From: Thermoanaerobaculia bacterium
Lineage (GTDB): Bacteria; Acidobacteriota; Thermoanaerobaculia; Multivoradales; UBA5704
Direction of reading: 5' to 3'
Assembly (NCBI GenBank): GCA_035536935.1
Contig: DATLNC010000183.1
Span: 188-64,187 of the forward strand
DNA length: 64,000 nt
This document shows, one piece after another, positions 5,693 through 61,560 of the stretch; the first letter of the stretch is position 1, and every line of letters starts with the position of its first letter. The translations under genes and the position numbers were made by a program. A model generated the notes under the pieces. It had not been told where the DNA came from and did no database searches. It saw only the letters and a list, made by a program, of their open reading frames with translations.

Positions 5693-5700
5693 GACCGTCG

Positions 5701-5925
5701 GAACTGACTTCCGGGCGGTGGGAAGTCAGTTCCGGACGATGGGAAGTGACTTCCGGACAGTCGCAAGTGAGCTCCGGAGAGGAGGAAGTGACATCCGGAC
5801 GGTTGGAAGTGAGCTCCGGGCCTTGGGAAGTGAGCTCCGGAGGATGGGATCTCACTTCCGGGTGGTGGGAAGTGACTTCCGAGCGGCGGGGAAGTGACTT
5901 CAGGATGCCCGGAAGTCAGATGCGC
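5701..5925. repeat. Family-A phased palindrome array, copy 1 (11 units of 21 nt)
   Basis: Units start at 5701, 5722, 5743, 5764, 5785, 5806, 5827, 5848, 5869, 5891 and 5912. Core GAAGTGACTTCCGG plus a 7-nt linker RNNNTGG. Confidence 0.95.
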
Positions 5926-6421: not shown

Positions 6422-6789
6422 GACAGGTCTCTCTCCTTTGGTGAGATCTTGCAACTTCTGTTATACGGGTGCAAGGGGTAATTTGTTGAAGCTCACTGCG
6501 CTACCGTCCTCTAGACGGGTCAGGTACTGCCTTGAATCCCTTTCTTTCGCACCTGATTGCGATTGCGATGCCTGCCTCTCCAAATTGATTCCCGGAAGTG
6601 TTTAAACCTTTGTCCTGTCGATGTTTCTGGCTTTCCGGGAGGAAGAGAGGCACGGAGCAGGGCGGATCCGGCGTCCTCCGGAGAGGTCGATCCAGCCCTC
6701 GTCAGGTTGCAGGGGCGAGGAAGTACCCGATTTCCCGCCGCGAAGCACTCTCTTGGGTGAGACCCTTTCGCAAATTTCAAGGAGGAAAA

Positions 6790-7551
6790 ATGTCGCGCAA
6801 GACTTTGGCAGTACTGGCACTCGCTTCGCTGTCGCTGGTTCCCCGGGCGTTCGCCATCACCTATGGCGTGCCCGACGGCGGCGATCATCCGAACGTGGGG
6901 GGAGTGATCCTGCAGGAGCCCGGGGGAGAGAAGTTCCTCGTGTGCACGGGCACGCTCATCTCCCCGACGGTGGTCCTCACCGCGGCGCACTGCATCGACG
7001 CGGGCGCCGCGTATTTCGTCAGCTTCGACCGGGATATCACGTCCAGGTCCAAGCTCTACGCGGGAACGGCGTACGTCCACCCGGGCTACACATTCGCCCA
7101 GAATGACCCCAACGACGTGGCGGTGATCGTGTTTGCGCAGGCGGTCCGGGGGATCACGCCGGCTTCCCTGCCCTCGGCGGGCCTGCTCGACCGCCTGTCG
7201 CTGCACGGCCAGAAGTTCACCGCCGTGGGCTACGGGCTGCACGAGCCGAACATCGGCGGCGGCCCGATCTCGTTCGACGACGTCAGCGACCGCTGGCGCT
7301 CGGTCTCGGAGTTCAACGCGCTGAGCAGCGCCTGGCTGCGGTTGTCGCAGAACCCCGCGACCGGCGATGGCGGGACCTGCTACGGCGACTCGGGCGGTCC
7401 GAACTTCCTCGGCGCGGGCGCCAATGAGACGCCGATCATCGCCGGGGTCACGATCACTGGCGACTACTTCTGCCGCGCCACCAATGCGACCGGCCGGCTC
7501 GACACGCCGTCCGCCCGCTCGTTCCTGGGCGTGTTCGTCACGCTGAATTGA
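6790..7551 (+). CDS. Secreted trypsin-like (S1 family) serine protease
   Basis: GGAGG RBS. Signal peptide MSRKTLAVLALASLSLVPRAFA. Catalytic motifs LTAAHC, NDVAVI, CYGDSGGP. Confidence 0.9.
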   Translation: MSRKTLAVLALASLSLVPRAFAITYGVPDGGDHPNVGGVILQEPGGEKFLVCTGTLISPTVVLTAAHCIDAGAAYFVSFDRDITSRSKLYAGTAYVHPGYTFAQNDPNDVAVIVFAQAVRGITPASLPSAGLLDRLSLHGQKFTAVGYGLHEPNIGGGPISFDDVSDRWRSVSEFNALSSAWLRLSQNPATGDGGTCYGDSGGPNFLGAGANETPIIAGVTITGDYFCRATNATGRLDTPSARSFLGVFVTLN

Positions 7552-10318: not shown

Positions 10319-10418
10319 GAAAAGGACCCAAAGGACACCAAGGACCGCAAGGACATCAAGGACGGGCTTCCGGGTCCTTGCGGTCCTTGATGTCCTTGCG
10401 GTCCTTTATGTCCTTGAT
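10319..10418. repeat. Mirror-image block of 9-nt iterons (5x NNNAAGGAC, centre, 5x GTCCTTNNN)
   Basis: 18-bp perfect inverted repeat 10346-10363 / 10383-10400. Located in the tldD / carboxyltransferase divergent intergenic region. Confidence 0.9.
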
Positions 10419-27492: not shown

Positions 27493-28383
27493 TCACGGGC
27501 TCGGCAGCTGCGCAAGCTGCGCGGACGCCAAAGGCCTGGCGAGGATGACCGTATAGTAGGTAGGGTGTTCCGCTGCGAGGTGGGCCCGCTCGGCGTCGAT
27601 CACGGACTTGAGAAGGCCGGTTCTTTCGGCAGCAGTCAGGTGCTCCAGGCGAAGGTGTGGATGGATGACGGCCAGGAAATTGCCGCCATAGTCATGACGC
27701 TCGAGCACGTCAAAGTGGCGGTGCAAGGCATCGAGGATCTCCGAGGATCTCACGGCTTCGGTGGGGTCGCGCCAATCGACAGGCAGCTTGAGGCTCCGGG
27801 ACCTTCTTACGGAAGGAGGTAGCTGCGCAAAGATCTCGGAGGCCGCTTCGATGAGGGAGAACGACCACTCGCCACGTGAGGGCCCCACATATTCATCGAT
27901 ATACACCAGAGCTCCGGGCAGCAGCGCGGCTGCCGTGACAGAAAGGCAGGAGTCCAACTCTTCAGCATGGTGGAGAGCCTGGTGAAAGAAGGCCGCGTCG
28001 AAAGCGGCCTCGGGGAGATCGAGCGCGTTCATGTCCCCGCGTTCGTATCTTGCGCCGGTCAGGCCTTGTGCCCGGGCTTTCGCCTCGGCCAGCTGCAAAG
28101 CTTCCGTCGAGAGGTCGATGCCAAGTATGGACGTGCAGAGCCCTTTGGAGAGCAGATCGCGTTCCAGGGCGCCTTCTCCGCAGCCGATGCTGACGGCCGC
28201 CGTGAACGGTGACTGAATGACGGTTCGGAGCCATTCGATGGGCCAGACTTTCGGCGAGCCCGTAACGGATTCGTTGATGTACTCACGGACGATGGCTTCG
28301 TGCATCCAGGTCCGCAAGCTCCCTTCGGCGAAGGTGCGTCCCCAGAAGCGGCTCCCGATGTACGAGCGTAGCTTCATCCACAT
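27493..28383 (-). CDS. Class I SAM-dependent methyltransferase
   Basis: Motif I SIGCGEGALERDL, ILGIDLS, acidic loop. GC is noticeably lower than in the neighbours. The start is uncertain (28377-28407). Confidence 0.8.
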   Translation of the reverse strand: MWMKLRSYIGSRFWGRTFAEGSLRTWMHEAIVREYINESVTGSPKVWPIEWLRTVIQSPFTAAVSIGCGEGALERDLLSKGLCTSILGIDLSTEALQLAEAKARAQGLTGARYERGDMNALDLPEAAFDAAFFHQALHHAEELDSCLSVTAAALLPGALVYIDEYVGPSRGEWSFSLIEAASEIFAQLPPSVRRSRSLKLPVDWRDPTEAVRSSEILDALHRHFDVLERHDYGGNFLAVIHPHLRLEHLTAAERTGLLKSVIDAERAHLAAEHPTYYTVILARPLASAQLAQLPSP

Positions 28384-28396
28384 CTCATTCACTCGC

Positions 28397-28621
28397 GGGC
28401 AAGTCACTTCCCCACGGCCGGGAAGTCATTTCCCACAGCTCGGAAGTCACTTCCCCAGGCTGGGAAGTCATTTCCCGCAGTCCGGAAGTCACTTCCCACC
28501 CTCCGGCAGTCCTTCCGACCGTCCCGCAAGTCACTTCCCATGACCCGGAAGTCACTTCCGACCACCCGGAAGTCATTTCCCAACGCCCGGATCTCAGTTC
28601 AGAACGCCCGGAAGCTGTCTC
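28397..28621. repeat. Family-A phased palindrome array, copy 2 (11 units, inverted orientation)
   Basis: CCGGAAGTCACTTC cores start at 28397, 28419, 28440, 28461, 28482, 28503, 28524, 28545, 28566, 28587 and 28608. Confidence 0.95.
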
Positions 28622-28652: not shown

Positions 28653-29273
28653 ATGAGCTACTGGGTCTGGCGCGACCATCAAGGCGATGTCGAAGTCCGG
28701 TTCACGGGCCGGGGGCCTGCCGGAGAGCGGGACGAGATCCTGGCCTGTATCGAGCGGGGCGCTCCTCCGGTCGCCTGGGCGAAGCAGATCCACTCCGCAA
28801 CGGTCCTGCCCGCCCATCCCGGACATTGCGGCGAGGGGGATGCCCTCTTCGGGGATGCTCCGGACCTCGCGCTGTCCGTGGTGACGGCCGACTGCGTGCC
28901 GGTCCTTCTCGCCGGTCCCAAGGGATTGGCGGCGGTCCACGCCGGATGGCGGGGGCTGGTCGGCGGCGTGATCCCGGCTGCGTTGGAAAAGCTTGGTGGA
29001 GCAGATACGGCCTGGATCGGTCCGGCGATCGGACCCTGCTGCTACGAGGTGGGCGAGGAGGTGGCGGAGCAGTTCCCGGAGGAAACGGTCATTCCCGGAC
29101 CCAAGCCGCACCTGGACCTGGTCGCGGCGGCCCGGCTCCAGTTGAAGGATGTCGAGGAGATCCGCGCCGTGGGGATCTGCACGCGGTGCGCGGCGGACCG
29201 GCTCTACAGCTATCGCAGGGAAGGCAAGGGGGTGGGGCGGAACGTGGCTTTCATCTGGAGGCGGTCCTCCTGA
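28653..29273 (+). CDS. pgeF: YfiH/PgeF-family (DUF152) peptidoglycan editing factor / laccase-domain protein
   Basis: QIHSATV, TADCVPVLL, AVHAGWRG, GPCCYEVG, ICTRC..LYSYRREG. Confidence 0.88.
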   Translation: MSYWVWRDHQGDVEVRFTGRGPAGERDEILACIERGAPPVAWAKQIHSATVLPAHPGHCGEGDALFGDAPDLALSVVTADCVPVLLAGPKGLAAVHAGWRGLVGGVIPAALEKLGGADTAWIGPAIGPCCYEVGEEVAEQFPEETVIPGPKPHLDLVAAARLQLKDVEEIRAVGICTRCAADRLYSYRREGKGVGRNVAFIWRRSS

Positions 29274-47164: not shown

Positions 47165-47782
47165 ATGAGCACCCGGCCCGCTATTGCCAACGCCCCTGAG
47201 TACGAGCCCTCGACGATTGAGGAGTTCCTCGCCTGGGAGGATGACAGATGGGCGGAGTGGGTGGACGGGAAAGTCATCCGAATGGCGGCAGTCACCTACG
47301 GACATCAGGAGATCGTCGGCTTTCTTTGGGGACTTCTGAGCCTCTACATCGAAGCGCACGACCTGGGCTGGATCACGGCGGCCCCGTACGCGATGCATCT
47401 GCCCAGTCGCCAGAGGGTGAGGGAGCCGGATCTGCTTTTCGTATCGCGCGAGCACCTGGCTCTTCGCAGGGACCTCTACCTGGACGGCGCCGCGGATCTC
47501 GTGGTCGAGGTCGTCTCGCTTGACAGCCGCAGGCGGGACCGGGTCGAGAAGGTCATCGACTATGAGACGGAGGGCGTCCGGGAGTACTGGCTGATCGACC
47601 CTCGCCGCAGGCAGGTGGAGCTTCGGCGCTTGGGCGAGGATGGCCGCTACAGCCTGGTCGAGCCCGAGGAGGGGATTTTCACCTCCTCGGCCATCCCGGG
47701 ATTCCGGCTCCGCATCGACTGGCTCTGGCAGCAACCCAAGCCGAAGCTCCTCGACGCCGCCCGCGAGCTGGGCCTCTTCTGA
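47165..47782 (+). CDS. Uma2-family (DUF820) PD-(D/E)xK endonuclease-like protein
   Basis: EWVDGKVIRM, EPDLLFV, ADLVVEVVS, YETEGVREYWLIDP. Confidence 0.85.
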   Translation: MSTRPAIANAPEYEPSTIEEFLAWEDDRWAEWVDGKVIRMAAVTYGHQEIVGFLWGLLSLYIEAHDLGWITAAPYAMHLPSRQRVREPDLLFVSREHLALRRDLYLDGAADLVVEVVSLDSRRRDRVEKVIDYETEGVREYWLIDPRRRQVELRRLGEDGRYSLVEPEEGIFTSSAIPGFRLRIDWLWQQPKPKLLDAARELGLF

Positions 47783-47800
47783 GAGGGTGTTTCTGCCGCC

Positions 47801-48170
47801 GGGCCGATTTGAGGGGCTTAGACTCGATCCAAGAAGCCTAGACCGGGTTCAAGGAGCTTGGATCCGTCCGAAGAAGCTCCGGGCCGATTTAAGCGGCTTG
47901 AATCGGATCTAAGAGGCTTAGAGCCCGATTCAAGCGGCTCCGACCGGATTTAAGAAGCTTAAATCGGATCTAAGAGGCTTGTGTCCGTCCCAAGAGGCTC
48001 AGATCCGATCTAAGAAGCTTCGAGCCGGATTCAAGGAGCTTAGATCCCATCCAAGAAGCTCAGACCGGAATTAAGAGGCTTGGATCCGATCTGAGAAGCT
48101 TCGAGCCGATCCACGGATTTTGGGACGGTTTCAAGGAACGTGGGGCCGGTCCAAGCGGCTTACAGCGCCT
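47801..48170. repeat. Family-B phased array (about 18 units of 20 nt, AAGAAGCTT + RGATCNGATCY)
   Basis: AAG unit starts at 47831, 47851, 47871, 47891, 47911, 47932, 47952, 47972, 47992, 48012, 48033, 48053, 48073 and 48093, continuing to about 48153. Confidence 0.93.
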
Positions 48171-48286
48171 GAATCATCTCCGCGATGCCAGCGCGGATCA
48201 GGGCAACGGAAATCGCGGCGAGGAACAGGCTCGACACCTTTCCGACCGTCCGGCAGGGAGGAGATGAGCTGGTTGCTTTCTTCCCC

Positions 48287-50599
48287 CTACAGCATCTCCA
48301 GGTTCGCGAACTTCGCCACCAGCTTCCTCTTCCCCGCCTTCTCGAAGAAGACGGTGAGCCTCATCTCTTCCCCCTGACCCTCCATCTCCAGGACGACTCC
48401 GGCGCCGAGGGTGGGGTGGCGCACCCGGCTGCCGCGCTTGATCGGACGCCGGGGGACGGCGCTCTCGTCCGGCTCGGGGACCACCACGCGGCCAGTTGGA
48501 CGCGGAGTGTACGGAGAGGGAACCGAGGGACGGGGGGCGGGCTGGAAAGAAGATGAGCGCGCCGGAGGAGCCGCCTGCGGGGGCGCGGCCTGGCCGAAGA
48601 AGGAGTAGATTCCCTGGGCGCGCTCGGTCACCCGGCCCGACAGGTAGAGGTCGGGGCTGTGGTGGACGTCGACGAGCTGGTCCGGCAGCTCTTGAAGGAA
48701 CGGCGACTCCATCTGGTCCTGATAGCGGCCGGCGATGCGGCGCCTCCGGCAGCAGGTCAGGTACAGCTTTTCCCGCGCCCGGGTCATCCCGACGTAGAGC
48801 AGGCGGCGCTCCTCCTCGATGTCGTCCCTCGCGCCCTGGGAGTTGAAGTGCGGAAGGAGCCCTTCCTCGAGACCTGCCACCACCACCGCCTTGAACTCCA
48901 GACCCTTGGCGCTGTGCAGGGTCATCAGCGAGACCCCCTTTTCCACTTGGAGTGAGTCGAGGTCCGTCACCAGGGCAATGTGGTCGAGGAAGGCGGTCAG
49001 GAGATCCTCGTCGCCCTGGTTGTAGCTGCTCGCCTCGGTGAACTCCTGGGCGGCGGAGAGGAACTCCTGGATGTTCTCCAGCCGGGCGACGTCGTCCGGA
49101 TCATCCTGGTTGTAGAGCTTGGCGTAGCCGGTGTCGTCGAGCAGCCGGTCGAGCAGGGCGGGCAGCGGCAGACCCTGGGACGCCTCCTGAAGGCCCACGA
49201 TCAGGTCGCGGAACTTGCGCAGGGCCGTGGCGCTGCGGGCAGGGAGCGTGCCCAGGTCGTCGAGATAGAGAACGTCCCAGATCGGCTGGCCGAGCTGGAC
49301 CGCCCGGTCGCGCAGCAGCTCCAGGGTGGACTTGCCGATGCTCCTCGGCGGCTGGTTGATGATCCGGCCCAGGGAGAAGTTGTCCCGCGGGTTGCGCAGG
49401 ACCCGCAGATAGGCGACCAGGTCCTTGATCTCGGCCCGGTCGTAGAAGCGGACGCCGCCGACCAGCGAGTAGGGGATCTCGCGCTTGAGCAGCTCGTCTT
49501 CGATCGCCCGGGTCTGGGCGTTGGTGCGCACCAGAACCGCGAGGTCCCCGAGCTTGTACTGGTGGCGGAGCTTCTGGATGCGGTCCACGATCCAGTTGGC
49601 CTCGTCGCCCTCGTCCGTGGCCTTGTAGAGCTCGGCCTTGGGGCCGGCGCCGTGCTCGGTCCACAGGCGCTTGCCCCGGCGGTGGACGTTGTTGGCGATG
49701 AGGGCGCCGGAGACGTCTAGGATGGTCTGGGTGGAGCGGTAGTTGCGCTCCAGCTTGCGCACCTCGGCGCCGGGGAAGGTCTTCTCGAAGTCGAGGATGT
49801 TGTCGAGGTCCGCGCCGCGCCAGCGGTAGATCCCCTGGTCCTCGTCGCCCACGGCCGTGAGGTTGCCTTCGGGGCCGATCAGCTCCTGGATGAGGCGGAG
49901 CTGGGCGTGGTTCGTGTCCTGGTACTCGTCCACGAGGAGATACCGGGTGCGGCGACGGATCCGCTCCTTGACCTCCGGGTCGTGGGAGAGGAGCTTGACC
50001 GATAGTGTCAGGAGGTCGTCGAAGTCCACGCCGGAGGCCTGGCCGAGGAGCCCCTGGTACTTCCGGTAGAGCGAGGCGACCTTCTTCTCGAAGAAATTGG
50101 TGGCGGCCGATTCGTAGGCCGCAGGCTCGATGAGCTTGTTCTTGGCGCCGCTGATCTGCGAGAGGACCGAGCGCGGCGAGAAGGCGGTCTCGGAGAGCCC
50201 CTCGGCCGAGAGCGCCTCCTTGACCAGGCCGAGCTGGTCGGAGGTGTCGAGGATGGCAAAGTCCCGCCGCAGGCCGACCCGCTCGCCATAGCGGCGGAGC
50301 AGGATCAGACCATAGCGGTGGAAGGTGCCCACGGAGGTGGGGAGCGGATGAAGGCCGAGGAGGTCTTCGACCCGCTCGCGCATCTCGGCCGCCGCCTTGT
50401 TGGTGAAGGTCATGGCGGCGATGTGGCCGGGATCGACTCCGCGCTCCTCCACGAGCCAGGCGATGCGGTAGGTAATGACGCGGGTCTTGCCCGATCCGGC
50501 GCCGGCGAGGACGAGCTGAGGGCCGTCGCCATGGGTCACGGCGGCGATCTGCTCGGGGTTGAGCTGCTTCTCGAGGTCCTGGGTGCTGGTCCGTCTCAC
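48287..50599 (-). CDS. pcrA: UvrD/PcrA-type ATP-dependent DNA helicase
   Basis: LNPEQIAAV, AGAGSGKT, LLVDEYQDTN, YRSTQ, MTLHSAKGLEF, YVGMTRA. C-terminal Tudor-like tail. Confidence 0.93.
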   Translation of the reverse strand: MRRTSTQDLEKQLNPEQIAAVTHGDGPQLVLAGAGSGKTRVITYRIAWLVEERGVDPGHIAAMTFTNKAAAEMRERVEDLLGLHPLPTSVGTFHRYGLILLRRYGERVGLRRDFAILDTSDQLGLVKEALSAEGLSETAFSPRSVLSQISGAKNKLIEPAAYESAATNFFEKKVASLYRKYQGLLGQASGVDFDDLLTLSVKLLSHDPEVKERIRRRTRYLLVDEYQDTNHAQLRLIQELIGPEGNLTAVGDEDQGIYRWRGADLDNILDFEKTFPGAEVRKLERNYRSTQTILDVSGALIANNVHRRGKRLWTEHGAGPKAELYKATDEGDEANWIVDRIQKLRHQYKLGDLAVLVRTNAQTRAIEDELLKREIPYSLVGGVRFYDRAEIKDLVAYLRVLRNPRDNFSLGRIINQPPRSIGKSTLELLRDRAVQLGQPIWDVLYLDDLGTLPARSATALRKFRDLIVGLQEASQGLPLPALLDRLLDDTGYAKLYNQDDPDDVARLENIQEFLSAAQEFTEASSYNQGDEDLLTAFLDHIALVTDLDSLQVEKGVSLMTLHSAKGLEFKAVVVAGLEEGLLPHFNSQGARDDIEEERRLLYVGMTRAREKLYLTCCRRRRIAGRYQDQMESPFLQELPDQLVDVHHSPDLYLSGRVTERAQGIYSFFGQAAPPQAAPPARSSSFQPAPRPSVPSPYTPRPTGRVVVPEPDESAVPRRPIKRGSRVRHPTLGAGVVLEMEGQGEEMRLTVFFEKAGKRKLVAKFANLEML

Positions 50600-55195: not shown

Positions 55196-55741
55196 GTGAA
55201 CTTGCCCTTGACCACGAACGCCATCCTGGACAGGACCGACAGCGTGACAGGCACCGATCGGCTCGCGGAGCTTTTCGATTCGCACCAGAACCGGCTGTTC
55301 CACCTGGCCCTGCGGCTCTGCTCCGACCGCGAGGAGGCCCGGGATCTCGTTCAGGAGGCGTTCCTGCGGGCGGCGCGCCAGCCCCGCTCGGTTCCCGAGG
55401 GCGAGCCCGGCGGGGAGGCGTGGCTGGTCCGCACCCTGGTCAACCTCTGCCGTGACCGTTACCGCCGCCTCGCCGTGCGATCCAAGGCTCGGGGGGAATT
55501 GAGCCGGGAGGGGAGGGGGGAGCGCGCCCATCCCGAGGAGGCCCATGTGGCCAAGGCGACCGTGCAGGCCGCCCTCGCCCATCTCGCCCCCCGGCGCAGG
55601 GCTGCGATCGTCCTCCACGAGTTGGAAGGCCGGCCGGTGCGCGACGTGGCCCGGCTGCTGGGCGTGACCGAAGTGACTGTCCGCTGGCATCTGCTTGCCG
55701 CCCGCCGGGAGCTGGCCAAGGTTCTGGGAGAAAAGCCATGA
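55196..55741 (+). CDS. ECF-type sigma-70 family sigma factor
   Basis: Region 2 FDSHQNRLFHLALRLCSDREEARDLVQEAFLRA. Region 4 RRAAIVLHELEGRPVRDVARLLGVTEVTVRWHLLAARRELA. Start is GTG 55196 or 55244. Confidence 0.85.
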   Translation: MNLPLTTNAILDRTDSVTGTDRLAELFDSHQNRLFHLALRLCSDREEARDLVQEAFLRAARQPRSVPEGEPGGEAWLVRTLVNLCRDRYRRLAVRSKARGELSREGRGERAHPEEAHVAKATVQAALAHLAPRRRAAIVLHELEGRPVRDVARLLGVTEVTVRWHLLAARRELAKVLGEKP

Positions 55742-56232
55742 GTGATGAGCTGCGCTCGATCCTGAGTAAGGGAGACCCCGCGGCCGGAGATCCCGGGCTG
55801 ACTCCGGACGAGGTCCAAGGGATGAGGCGGACCGTGCTGTCCGCGGTACCCGAGCCTCGCCGGCGGGGGTGGCTGGTGCCGGCGATGGTCACGGCAGCGG
55901 CCCTGATCCTGGCCGCGGTGATCGCGCTCAGCCTCTGGCAACCGGAGCCGGTGCAGGAAGCCGTCCGACCCCCTCTCCCGCTTGCGGGAGAGGGTAGGGG
56001 AGAGGGTCCGGTGATGGAGGCGGAGAAACCCCCTCCCCAACCCTCCCCCGCTGCGCGGGAGAGGGGGCCGGAGCCCGTACCGCGGAAGAAGAAGGTTGTT
56101 CATCCCGAGCCGGAGCCGGTGGTTCTTGCCCAGGCAGAGATCCCGCCGGCCGACCACGGCCCGACACAGATCCAGTTTTCCACGCCGGGCGGTACCCGAA
56201 TCATCTGGGTGCTCCAGCCGGCCACCGAATGA
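55738..56232 (+). CDS. Putative anti-sigma factor (single-pass membrane protein)
   Basis: ATGA overlap with the sigma gene. One TM helix WLVPAMVTAAALILAAVIALSLW. The extracytoplasmic part contains two REP elements in frame. Confidence 0.65.
   Translation: MSDELRSILSKGDPAAGDPGLTPDEVQGMRRTVLSAVPEPRRRGWLVPAMVTAAALILAAVIALSLWQPEPVQEAVRPPLPLAGEGRGEGPVMEAEKPPPQPSPAARERGPEPVPRKKKVVHPEPEPVVLAQAEIPPADHGPTQIQFSTPGGTRIIWVLQPATE
55968..56072. repeat. Inverted pair of REP-like hairpin/G4 elements (R6a, R6b) inside a CDS
   Basis: 55968-56010 and 56028-56072. G4 motif GGGAGAGGGTAGGGGAGAGGG at 55986-56006. Confidence 0.85.
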
Positions 56233-56957
56233 GACCCAGGAGGAAAGAGACCATGAGATCCCTTCGACCCATCGCCGCCCTGCTGCTGCTCCTGGCCTGC
56301 CCCCTCATGGCCTCCGCGGCACAGGACAGGCCAGAACCGTCCTATGGCTCCCGCTACGACATCCGCTACCTGTCGGTGCATGCAGCCGAGTCCCTGGTCT
56401 GGGACCTGTGCCCGCAGAAGAACGCCTGCGTGGTCCGGGGTCTGGCCAACGCCAACGGCCGGGGAGCCGTCCTGGAGGTGAACGCCGACCACGAGACCCA
56501 CGCGCGCATCGCCAAGGCCCTGGCCGAGCGCGACTCCGCCCCCCCGACCCAGGTCTTCCAACTCGTCCTCCTCGCCGCGGGCAACAAGTCCAACGGACCG
56601 GCCCCGACTCTCTCCGAAGGCGCCCAGAAGGCGCTCGACGACATGAAGAAGTTCCTGCCGTTCACCCACTACCGCATGCTCGACACGGCCCTGCTCCGCG
56701 TCACCCAGGACGACGTGGCCCAGGCGCAGATCGCCGGCCTCCTGGGGACCCGGTACAAGGTGGCGATGCGGTTCCGTGCGGGAGGGACTGACGGCAAGTC
56801 GCTGTTCATCGACGGCTTCGGGCTCGACGAGATGAATGACCGCGACCTCATCCAGACCTCCTTCTCCATGGATGTGGGGGAGACGGTCGTCGTCGGCACC
56901 TCCTCGGTCGGAGCCGAGCAGGACTCCCTGGTAGCCATCCTCACCGCCCTGCCTTGA
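56229..56957 (+). CDS. Secreted protein with secretin-N (NolW-like) type repeats suspected
   Basis: Signal peptide MRSLRPIAALLLLLACPLMASA. GAVLEVNADHETHARIAKALAERD pattern. Start is 56229 (ATGA coupled) or 56253 (GGAGGA RBS). Confidence 0.6.
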   Translation: MRPRRKETMRSLRPIAALLLLLACPLMASAAQDRPEPSYGSRYDIRYLSVHAAESLVWDLCPQKNACVVRGLANANGRGAVLEVNADHETHARIAKALAERDSAPPTQVFQLVLLAAGNKSNGPAPTLSEGAQKALDDMKKFLPFTHYRMLDTALLRVTQDDVAQAQIAGLLGTRYKVAMRFRAGGTDGKSLFIDGFGLDEMNDRDLIQTSFSMDVGETVVVGTSSVGAEQDSLVAILTALP

Positions 56958-61366: not shown

Positions 61367-61560
61367 CGTCTGACATGACTTCCGGGGGCTCGGATCTCAG
61401 TTCCGGGCCGCCGGAAGTGAGTTCCGGGGGGCGGGAAGTGACTTCCGGACAGGGGGAAGTCATTTCCGGACGTTGGGAAGTGAGTTCCGGGCCTTGAGAA
61501 GTGAGTTCCGGACGGTGGGAAGTGAGCTCAGATCGCTCGGAAGTGACTTCCGAGCCGTAC
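61351..61560. repeat. Family-A phased palindrome array, copy 3 (10 units, exact 21-nt phase)
   Basis: Units start at 61351, 61372, 61393, 61414, 61435, 61456, 61477, 61498, 61519 and 61540. Confidence 0.95.

What the first reader, a model, noticed from the sequence alone, without database searches (positions are those of the whole stretch)
47801..48170. Second, unrelated phased array: about 18 units of 20 nt, each carrying two small palindromes
The 504-nt gap between the convergent Uma2 endonuclease gene (stop 47782) and pcrA (stop 48287) holds a tandem array. Unit starts (AAG...) fall at 47831, 47851, 47871, 47891, 47911, 47932, 47952, 47972, 47992, 48012, 48033, 48053, 48073 and 48093, continuing beyond; the period is 20 nt with occasional 21. 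The consensus is about AAGARGCTT-RGAYCCGATYY. Most units combine an AAGCTT-type hexamer palindrome with an 11-nt RGATC-N-GATCY palindrome, for example AGATCCGATCT at 48001-48011. GC is clearly lower than in the flanking genes. There is no sequence similarity to family A, but the design principle is the same (phased short palindromes in a convergent gap). That points to a genome-wide habit of filling 3'-3' junctions with such arrays.
Basis: seen in the sequence. Interest (0 to 1): 0.7.

Follow-up and report, generated by a model that had tools for sequence, protein, structure and literature searches.

The report
Degenerate 20-nt palindromic minisatellite in gene gap
The 504-base gap between two convergent genes of an uncultured soil acidobacterium (class Thermoanaerobaculia) is filled by a real but decaying, non-coding tandem repeat of a 20-base self-complementary unit, which close relatives lack, so it is probably dispensable filler DNA.

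Summary
The array is real. Fifteen clear units lie in phase at 47811-48112, with about four decayed in-phase units around them. The period is 20 nt, with two 21-mers. The array fills the whole Uma2/pcrA gap and is identical in two other assemblies.

It is non-coding, matches no Rfam family, and has no sigma-70-type promoter; one weak terminator-like hairpin lies at the Uma2 stop codon, at chance frequency. The "two palindromes per unit" hold for the consensus only. Exact AAGCTT occurs 3 times and GATC-N-GATC twice, and paired positions do not co-vary.

Relatives show this junction is a variable hotspot:
- a ~94%-identical genome has a VapBC toxin-antitoxin pair there;
- others have nothing, or other genes;
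- an ~85%-identical genome has an unrelated-sequence 21-nt array of the same two-dyad design.

Only about 3 of 12 convergent gaps in the window hold arrays, and one family A array sits in a divergent gap.

Best reading: a dispensable, slippage-amplified, REP/BIME-like palindromic minisatellite. It may at most act as a generic hairpin-rich barrier.

Two points keep a phased protein-binding array alive as a rival. Positions AAG..GCT are invariant in all 15 units. Families A and B share an AAG-N3-CTT dyad.

The parts
47165..47782 (+). Uma2-family (PD-(D/E)XK-type) endonuclease gene, the left flank. It is ancestral at this locus, not part of the repeat.
   Evidence: Pfam PF05685, E 3.4e-34. Syntenic orthologues at 81-100% identity lie between the GNAT gene and pcrA in seven other contigs.
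47783..47810 (.). Head of the gap: a weak hairpin over the Uma2 stop, plus one decayed in-phase unit (47791-47810, ..CTGCCGCCGGGCCGATTT).
   Evidence: Terminator-like hit 47773-47786 with a 5-bp stem, no better than chance. The decayed unit resembles unit 47871 (AAGAAGCTCCGGGCCGATTT) when read. All junction alleles diverge right after the TGA.
47811..48112 (.). Core array: 15 head-to-tail units of 20 nt (two are 21 nt). Consensus AAGAAGCTTAGATCCGATCT, with dyad axes at unit positions 5 and 15. A 101-nt (5-unit) higher-order duplication is present.
   Evidence: Positions A2, G3, G6 and C7 are invariant in 15/15 units, against 0.37 invariant positions expected (dispersion chi2 p=4e-5). TRF periods 81 and 101 give 74% matches, against 63% at period 20. 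The two 21-mers sit at equivalent positions of the two 101-nt blocks.
48113..48172 (.). Three decayed units still in 20-nt phase (ACGGATTTTGGGACGGTTTC / AAGGAACGTGGGGCCGGTCC / AAGCGGCTTACAGCGCCTGA).
   Evidence: Weak nhmmer hit at 48120-48166 (E 0.008).
48160..48237 (-). Tiny 25-codon ORF (GTG start; MSSLFLAAISVALIRAGIAEMIQAL) inside the unique 114-nt tail 48173-48286. Probably not a gene.
   Evidence: ORF list. The tail has no similarity to any relative's junction. No homology search was run.
48287..50599 (-). pcrA/uvrD helicase gene, the right flank.
   Evidence: Pfam UvrD-helicase, UvrD_C and PcrA_UvrD_tudor. Homologues carry source names of Thermoanaerobaculia/Acidobacteriota.
5700..5916 (.). 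Context only: family A array (21 nt, GGAAGTGACTTCC + spacer) filling a convergent gap.
28401..28614 (.). Context only: family A array in reverse orientation, filling a divergent gap between two gene starts.
61380..61557 (.). Context only: family A array filling the convergent GAF/Crp-family gap. The orthologous gap of the 91%-identical relative holds a different 21-nt array.

Best explanation
This is a non-coding, dyad-symmetric minisatellite. A 20-nt unit made of two abutting palindromes, AAG(C)-N-GCTT and AGATC-N-GATCT, is equivalent to a 10-mer in alternating orientation. I infer that this unit was amplified by replication slippage or unequal recombination. It has since decayed to about 75% identity with its consensus.

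The array sits in a gap that tolerates dispensable DNA. It has no specific link to Uma2 or pcrA. It is not needed by close relatives. It is not an RNA gene.

Shown: the anatomy, the non-coding status, the presence/absence among relatives, the block duplication, and the lack of covariation.

Inferred: the amplification mechanism; that the array reached this lineage as an already old allele by recombination across the conserved flanking genes; and that any effect is generic. When transcribed from either side the region is hairpin-rich and may hinder read-through or 3' exonucleases, as REP/BIME clusters do.
For: 1. Non-coding. No ORF longer than 31 codons lies within the array, and the period is not a multiple of 3.
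2. Dispensable.
   - L206/L207/L208 (~94%) have a PIN+RHH (VapBC) pair directly after Uma2.
   - L212 (~91%) has RHH plus a decayed PIN.
   - L082/L083 (~91%) have the pcrA and GNAT stops 1-7 nt apart, with no Uma2.
   - L215-218 (~87%) have the Uma2 and pcrA stops 4 nt apart.
   - L213 has DUF5131 after Uma2.
   - All alleles break right after the Uma2 TGA.
3. Growth by block duplication. There is a 101-nt, 5-unit higher-order repeat at 74% identity, with the 21-mers in equivalent places.
4. No selection on pairing.
   - Shuffling dyad partners among units gives the same complementarity: 71 observed against 70.6 expected (p=0.50), and 78 against 74.6 (p=0.21) (repeated).
   - G-T and A-C mismatches are equal (13/14 and 12/15), so no strand looks like a structured RNA.
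5. No Rfam match, either at gathering threshold or at E<=1 apart from two chance miRNA hits. No promoter-like site; one weak terminator-like hairpin at the Uma2 stop, no more than shuffles give.
6. Residual dyad symmetry still makes both strands fold better than shuffles (z -4.5 and -5.5). This is the only basis for a generic barrier effect.
7. Non-coding satellites are known in a minority of bacteria (PMC6749651). REP/BIME clusters favour convergent and unidirectional gaps (PMC3733652, PMC3184786).
Against: - Conservation along the unit is very uneven. AAG..GCT is invariant in 15/15 units while other positions vary freely. Pure neutral decay does not predict this, although shared ancestry of duplicated blocks inflates the statistic.
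- The same period and two-dyad design recur with unrelated sequence at the same junction in another lineage, and with other units at other gaps. This hints at a constraint or a dedicated generating process.
- The units are about 25% diverged from their consensus, yet the array is absent from a ~94%-identical genome. A recent local amplification does not fit, and import of an old allele has to be assumed.
- The array is identical in two strains that differ by 9 SNPs, so no hypervariability was seen.
Confidence: 0.5

Rival explanations
1. Phased protein-binding array, like iterons or centromere-type sites. A dimeric DNA-binding protein recognises the AAG-N3-CTT / AAGNRGCT dyad once per 20-21 bp, about two helical turns. 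All sites then face one side of the helix and a nucleoprotein filament forms, acting as a nucleoid-organising element, insulator or decoy.
For: - AAG..GCT is invariant in 15/15 units against a 23% mean mismatch rate (4 invariant positions against 0.37 expected; dispersion p=4e-5).
- Families A and B share AAG-N3-CTT, and 19 of the window's 25 such sites lie in the four arrays.
- Periods are 20-21 nt in every array seen.
- Family A has a conserved 13-nt dyad core and a variable spacer.
- Lack of compensatory change fits double-stranded DNA recognition better than RNA pairing.
- One array lies in a divergent promoter gap.
Against: - No candidate binding protein is linked to the arrays.
- The array is absent from close relatives at this junction.
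- Array D in L209 has no invariant position and a different core.
- The invariance statistic is inflated because units were copied as blocks.
- The chance that two dyad cores share a 3-nt arm is only a few percent, and this is a single post-hoc observation.
Confidence: 0.2
2. Selected bidirectional transcription terminator/insulator, or a 3'-end stabiliser. Stacked hairpins formed by either transcript would stop read-through between Uma2 and pcrA and block 3' exonucleases. This is the role proposed for REP/BIME and SPRITE elements.
For: - The array fills a convergent gap from 8 nt after one stop codon. Three of the four arrays in the window are in convergent gaps.
- Both strands fold better than shuffles.
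- Several strong multi-unit hairpins exist, for example 15-nt arms at 93% complementarity at 47892-47939.
- No canonical terminator is present in the gap otherwise.
Against: - Relatives manage with 1-7 nt between the convergent stop codons.
- Pairing is not maintained by compensatory changes.
- Most single units form only a 3-bp stem before a mismatch.
- Fifteen or more units is far more than a terminator needs.
- One family A array is in a divergent gap.
Confidence: 0.15
3. Mobile REP/MITE-like element. The unit or the whole array is spread by a transposase (RAYT-like or other) that targets intergenic hairpins.
For: - Family A arrays at three loci share the core and also the spacer, in both orientations, so that family is dispersed.
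- A related array occurs on an unrelated metagenome contig.
- Junction alleles differ by clean presence or absence.
Against: - For family B no second copy was found in the window, in 2.2 Mb of fetched loci, or in viral contigs.
- There are no terminal inverted repeats; no target-site duplication was noticed by eye at the gap borders.
- There is no GTAG or CGTC tag (sequence).
Confidence: 0.1
4. Structured non-coding RNA or protein sponge (CsrB- or CrcZ-like) with one binding motif per unit.
For: About 15 repeats of a purine-rich AAGRRG motif in roughly 300 nt recall multi-motif sponge RNAs (the comparison rests on my own knowledge).
Against: - No Rfam hit and no promoter-like site.
- No covariation and no G-U/A-C strand asymmetry.
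- GGA occurs 12 times against 8.4 expected from composition.
- Absent in relatives.
Confidence: 0.04
5. Assembly artefact.
For: None beyond the general risk that repeats pose to assemblers.
Against: Three assemblies give the same array, one of them from a strain differing by 9 SNPs. The units are diverged enough to assemble uniquely.
Confidence: 0.01

Closest known systems
REP sequences and BIME clusters (repetitive extragenic palindromes)
   Same: Short extragenic palindromic units. Clusters with units in alternating orientation: array B reads as a 10-mer alternating in orientation. They prefer 3' ends and convergent gaps, vary between strains, and have proposed roles in mRNA stabilisation, termination and gyrase/IHF binding (PMC3733652, PMC3184786).
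   Different: No GTAG or CGTC tag. The palindromes are 9 and 11 nt rather than 20-40. The array is strictly head-to-tail with a fixed 20-nt period. Family B was seen at one locus only. No RAYT gene was seen, and none was searched for genome-wide.
Non-coding bacterial satellites/minisatellites (Subirana & Messeguer 2019; VNTR/MIRU-type loci)
   Same: A head-to-tail array of a short unit in non-coding DNA, with higher-order block duplications and presence/absence between relatives (PMC6749651).
   Different: The units are much more diverged (63% matches) than typical VNTRs. No copy-number difference was seen between the two near-identical strains. The unit is self-complementary with two dyad axes.
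Iteron or partition-centromere arrays (for example ParR-parC type direct repeats)
   Same: Phased repeats at one or two helical turns, with a conserved core and a variable spacer (own knowledge).
   Different: The context is chromosomal and syntenic. No rep or par gene is adjacent. Several unrelated arrays occur within 64 kb.
Array D in the relative L209-L211 (GCA_035556715.1) and family A arrays of this window
   Same: The period is 20-21 nt. Array D has about 21 units; the family A arrays have about 7-10. Each fills a whole intergenic gap and has a dyad core. Array D also has two dyads per unit (GGAGC-N-GCTCC and GAATGCATTC) and sits in the same Uma2/pcrA gap.
   Different: The consensus units are not significantly similar to family B. 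Family A has one dyad and a non-palindromic spacer.

Membership tests
REP/BIME | Imperfect palindrome of 20-40 bp able to form a stem-loop | tested here: inconclusive
   The unit holds two short dyads of 9 and 11 nt. Only a few multi-unit hairpins are strong. Single units average about 60-65% complementarity.
REP/BIME | GTAG or CGTC tetranucleotide tag at one end (PMC3733652) | tested here: not met
   Neither tag is present in the consensus AAGAAGCTTAGATCCGATCT or at unit ends.
REP/BIME | High copy number dispersed over the genome | tested here: inconclusive
   There is one locus in the 64-kb window and none in 2.2 Mb of other loci. The whole genome could not be scanned, and the metagenome scan was truncated.
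REP/BIME | Association with a RAYT (IS200/IS605-type tyrosine transposase) | not testable with these tools
   The source genome is not available as a whole. No such gene is among the flanking genes.
REP/BIME | Extragenic, mostly between convergent or unidirectional genes | tested here: met
   The array lies in the convergent gap 47783-48286.
Non-coding minisatellite / VNTR | Head-to-tail copies of a 10-100 bp unit outside genes | tested here: met
   TRF reports period 20 and 14.4 copies. There is no ORF across the array.
Non-coding minisatellite / VNTR | Copy-number variation between strains | tested here: not met
   The two strains that carry it (9 SNPs apart over 10.3 kb) have identical arrays. 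More distant relatives show presence/absence, not copy-number change.
Iteron / partition centromere | Adjacent replication-initiator or partition genes, on a plasmid or at an origin | tested here: not met
   The neighbours are GNAT, Uma2, pcrA and an AAA protein, in chromosomal synteny across eight contigs.
CRISPR | Repeats of 24-48 bp separated by unique spacers of similar length | tested here: not met
   The 20-nt units abut with no spacers.
MITE | Terminal inverted repeats and a target-site duplication | tested here: not met
   No inverted repeat links the two ends of the gap. The borders show no duplication.
Known structured RNA family (Rfam 15) | Match to a covariance model; covariation supporting pairs | tested here: not met
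   There are 0 hits at gathering threshold and only chance miRNA hits at E<=1. No covariation was found.

The most novel reading that the evidence does not exclude
Thermoanaerobaculia genomes may carry a lineage-wide class of intergenic arrays. The arrays would be unrelated in sequence but built to one plan: a 20-21 bp period (two helical turns) and a dyad core of the type RRAG-N(1-3)-CTYY, such as AAG-N3-CTT. A common factor would read or generate them, for example a dimeric nucleoid or insulator protein forming filaments, or a dedicated repeat-adding enzyme. Array B would be one member.
Probability: 0.15. Interest if true: 0.65.

Novelty: new member of a known kind. Interest (0 to 1): 0.35.

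Why it matters
By itself this is one more uncharacterised bacterial minisatellite, in a dispensable spot.

It would matter if the recurring plan proves to be constrained. That plan is a 20-21 bp period, a dyad core, whole-gap filling, and different sequence families at the same or orthologous gaps. In that case large soil acidobacterial genomes would hold a so far undescribed type of phased cis-element or repeat-generating process.

The junction is also a clean natural example of an intergenic hotspot. There, a toxin-antitoxin pair, phage-like genes and repeat arrays replace one another between two conserved genes.

Tried and rejected
- **Coding repeat.** Rejected: the period is 20 nt and stop codons occur in all frames.
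- **Uma2 plus array as a mobile cassette.** I first thought this because L082 and L083 lack both. Rejected: Uma2 is syntenic in seven other contigs with or without an array, so Uma2 is ancestral and was lost in L082/L083.
- **Hairpins under selection.** Rejected by the partner-shuffle tests for arrays B and D.
- **Homology of array B with array D, family A or the L082 array.** The consensus alignments are not significant.
- **The tail 48114-48286 as a remnant of VapB/PIN or another junction allele.** No similarity was found.
- **GATC/AAGCTT methylation signal.** GATC is over-represented throughout the window (553 observed against 189 expected), so its presence in the array is not special. Exact sites occur in a minority of units.
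- **CsrA-type GGA sponge.** GGA is not enriched.
- **Searches for a second family B array.**
  - Viral contigs gave 0 hits.
  - nhmmer over all fetched loci gave only unrelated 10-nt repeats.
- **Similarity searches elsewhere.** Plasmid BLAST found nothing. Literature searches for the unit sequences and for Thermoanaerobaculia repeats found nothing relevant.

Full report
**Observation**

The gap between the Uma2 gene (47165-47782, +; PF05685, E 3e-34) and pcrA (48287-50599, -) is 504 nt long.

It holds a tandem array. Fifteen units start at 47811, 47831 and so on to 48093, spaced 20 nt apart with two 21-nt exceptions. Decayed units still in phase lie at 47791, 48113, 48133 and 48153.

- TRF reports period 20, 14.4 copies and 63% matches. 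It also reports higher-order periods of 40, 81 and 101 nt at 68-74% matches.
- Autocorrelation peaks at 0.56 at lag 20, with a minor peak at lag 10.
- The phased pattern AAGNNGCT x3 occurs 6 times here and never in shuffles.
- The consensus is AAGAAGCTTAGATCCGATCT.

The array is not an assembly artefact. A Logan contig (L001) is identical over 1366 nt. A JGI contig (L205) differs from the window by 9 SNPs in 10,348 nt, with no gaps and no difference inside the array.

**Anatomy**

The unit has two dyad axes, at positions 5 and 15. Together they give AAG(C)-N-GCTT and AGATC-N-GATCT, so the array is roughly its own reverse complement.

This symmetry holds for the consensus, not for the individual units. 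Exact AAGCTT occurs 3 times and RGATC-N-GATCY twice.

I shuffled dyad partners among units, and the complementarity did not change. The scores were 71 observed against 70.6 expected, and 78 against 74.6, with p of 0.50 and 0.21. G-T and A-C mismatches are equally common (repeated). There is therefore no compensatory evolution and no strand that looks like an RNA.

Both strands still fold better than shuffles, with z-scores of -4.5 and -5.5. A quasi-palindrome is expected to behave this way.

- No ORF crosses the array.
- Rfam gives nothing.
- No sigma-70 promoter was found; the only terminator-like hit is a weak 5-bp hairpin over the Uma2 stop codon, no more than chance.

Conservation along the unit is uneven. 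A2, G3, G6 and C7 are invariant in 15/15 units, against 0.37 invariant positions expected (dispersion p=4e-5). Block duplication makes the units non-independent, so this statistic is inflated. The two 101-nt blocks carry their 21-mers at equivalent positions.

**Organism and relatives**

PcrA homologues at 73-98% identity carry source names of Thermoanaerobaculia or Acidobacteriota. The locus order GNAT - Uma2 - [variable] - pcrA is syntenic across eight contigs.

| Contig(s) | Identity | What lies between Uma2 and pcrA |
|---|---|---|
| window, L205 | 100% aa (Uma2) | array B |
| L206-208 | ~94% nt | PIN+RHH (VapBC) |
| L212 | ~91% nt | RHH plus a decayed PIN |
| L082, L083 | ~91% nt | Uma2 itself missing; GNAT and pcrA stops 1-7 nt apart |
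| L215-218 | ~87% nt | stop codons 4 nt apart |
| L213 | 85% aa (Uma2) | DUF5131 |
| L209-211 | 81% aa (Uma2) | 21-nt array D (~21 units, 6628-7066), then a pcrA-tudor fragment, DUF5131 and GMT-wHTH |

All alleles diverge immediately after the Uma2 stop codon.

Array D has the consensus CGGAGCCGCTCCGAATGCATT. It also has two dyads per unit (GGAGC-N-GCTCC and GAATGCATTC) and also shows no covariation. Its unit is not significantly similar to family B.

**Other arrays**

The window holds three arrays of a 21-nt family A, with core GGAAGTGACTTCC.

- Two of them exactly fill convergent gaps.
- The third, at 28401-28614, fills a divergent gap between a methyltransferase gene and a Cu-oxidase_4 gene.

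By my rough gene calls, about 3 of 12 convergent gaps, 1 of 10 divergent gaps and 0 of about 29 tandem gaps hold an array (corrected).

At the gap orthologous to 61380-61557, the 91%-identical relative carries a different 21-nt array.

Families A and B share the dyad AAG-N3-CTT. Of the 25 AAG...CTT sites in the window, 19 lie in the four arrays. The other 6 match my rough composition-based expectation of about 5 (counts).

**Interpretation**

The best-supported reading is a dispensable, non-coding, dyad-symmetric minisatellite. It was amplified by slippage or unequal exchange and is now decaying. It sits in a junction where accessory DNA comes and goes. Any function is probably generic, such as a hairpin-rich barrier or 3'-end protection, as proposed for REP/BIME clusters (PMC3184786, PMC3733652).

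It is not a REP by definition. It has no GTAG or CGTC tag, and family B was seen at one locus only.

Three observations keep a phased protein-binding array as the main rival:
- the invariant AAG..GCT core;
- the recurring 20-21 bp, two-helical-turn period;
- the dyad shared with family A.

One point remains unexplained. The units are about 25% diverged from their consensus, yet the array is missing from a ~94%-identical genome. Either the array was imported as an old allele by recombination across the conserved flanks, or such arrays arise already heterogeneous.

**Limits**

- The source genome could not be scanned as a whole.
- The one genome-contig scan was swamped by a conserved helicase motif.
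- Absence of other family B copies is therefore weak evidence.
- No expression or binding data exist.

Noticed in passing
window 10320-10418: A near-perfect palindrome of about 100 nt. It is built from 5 x AAGGACNNN (9-nt period), a centre GGGCTTCCGG, then 5 x GTCCTTNNN, the reverse complement. It lies in a roughly 1.3-kb apparently divergent gap. This is a third kind of phased repeat in the window.
   Followed up: no
window 28401-28614: This family A array lies between two divergently oriented gene starts: a methyltransferase at 27493-28407 (-) and a Cu-oxidase_4 gene at 28653-29273 (+). It is the reverse complement of array 5700-5916, spacer included, so family A is a dispersed homologous family. 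A 76%-identical array with a 20-nt period occurs on metagenome contig L195.
   Followed up: partly
L082 1-228 (ENA ERZ25039485 contig_1998), orthologous to window 61380-61557: The 91%-identical relative has a different 21-nt array in the same GAF/Crp gap, anchored on GAGAAGC/GCGAAGC/GGAAAGC. Adjacent units are partly reverse complements of each other.
   Followed up: partly
window 55214-56943: A 1.7-kb segment absent from the syntenic relative L082. It holds ORFs at 55738-56232 and 56229-56957 on the + strand, which I did not annotate.
   Followed up: no
L209-L211 7084-7281: A 65-codon PcrA tudor-domain fragment, 91% identical to window 48284-48488, lies next to array D. The full pcrA lies 2 kb further on, beyond DUF5131 and GMT-wHTH genes. 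An insertion appears to have duplicated the 3' end of pcrA.
   Followed up: partly
L206 6637-7292; L212 1053-1720: A VapBC (PIN+RHH) pair occupies the junction in the ~94%-identical relative L206. In L212 the PIN gene has decayed to a pseudogene while RHH remains.
   Followed up: partly
L084 12478-16719: In the relative with 85% PcrA identity, a citrate synthase gene lies between pcrA and the GNAT gene, and a fused MethyltransfD12+DpnII (GATC restriction-modification-like) gene lies just beyond the GNAT gene.
   Followed up: no
window 48160-48237 (-): A 25-codon hydrophobic ORF (MSSLFLAAISVALIRAGIAEMIQAL) lies in the unique tail between the array and pcrA. Its stop codon overlaps the last decayed unit. 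No homology search was run.
   Followed up: no
L085 1100-1720; L166 329-608: Two unrelated metagenome contigs carry arrays with AAGC-N-GCT-type cores. One is a long 10-nt array, GCTTCRAGCY, in a contig of 46% GC. The other is a 20-nt array, AAGCGGCTCTACGTCCCAGG x14, in a contig of 68% GC. Both were selected by the search pattern, so they are not independent evidence.
   Followed up: no
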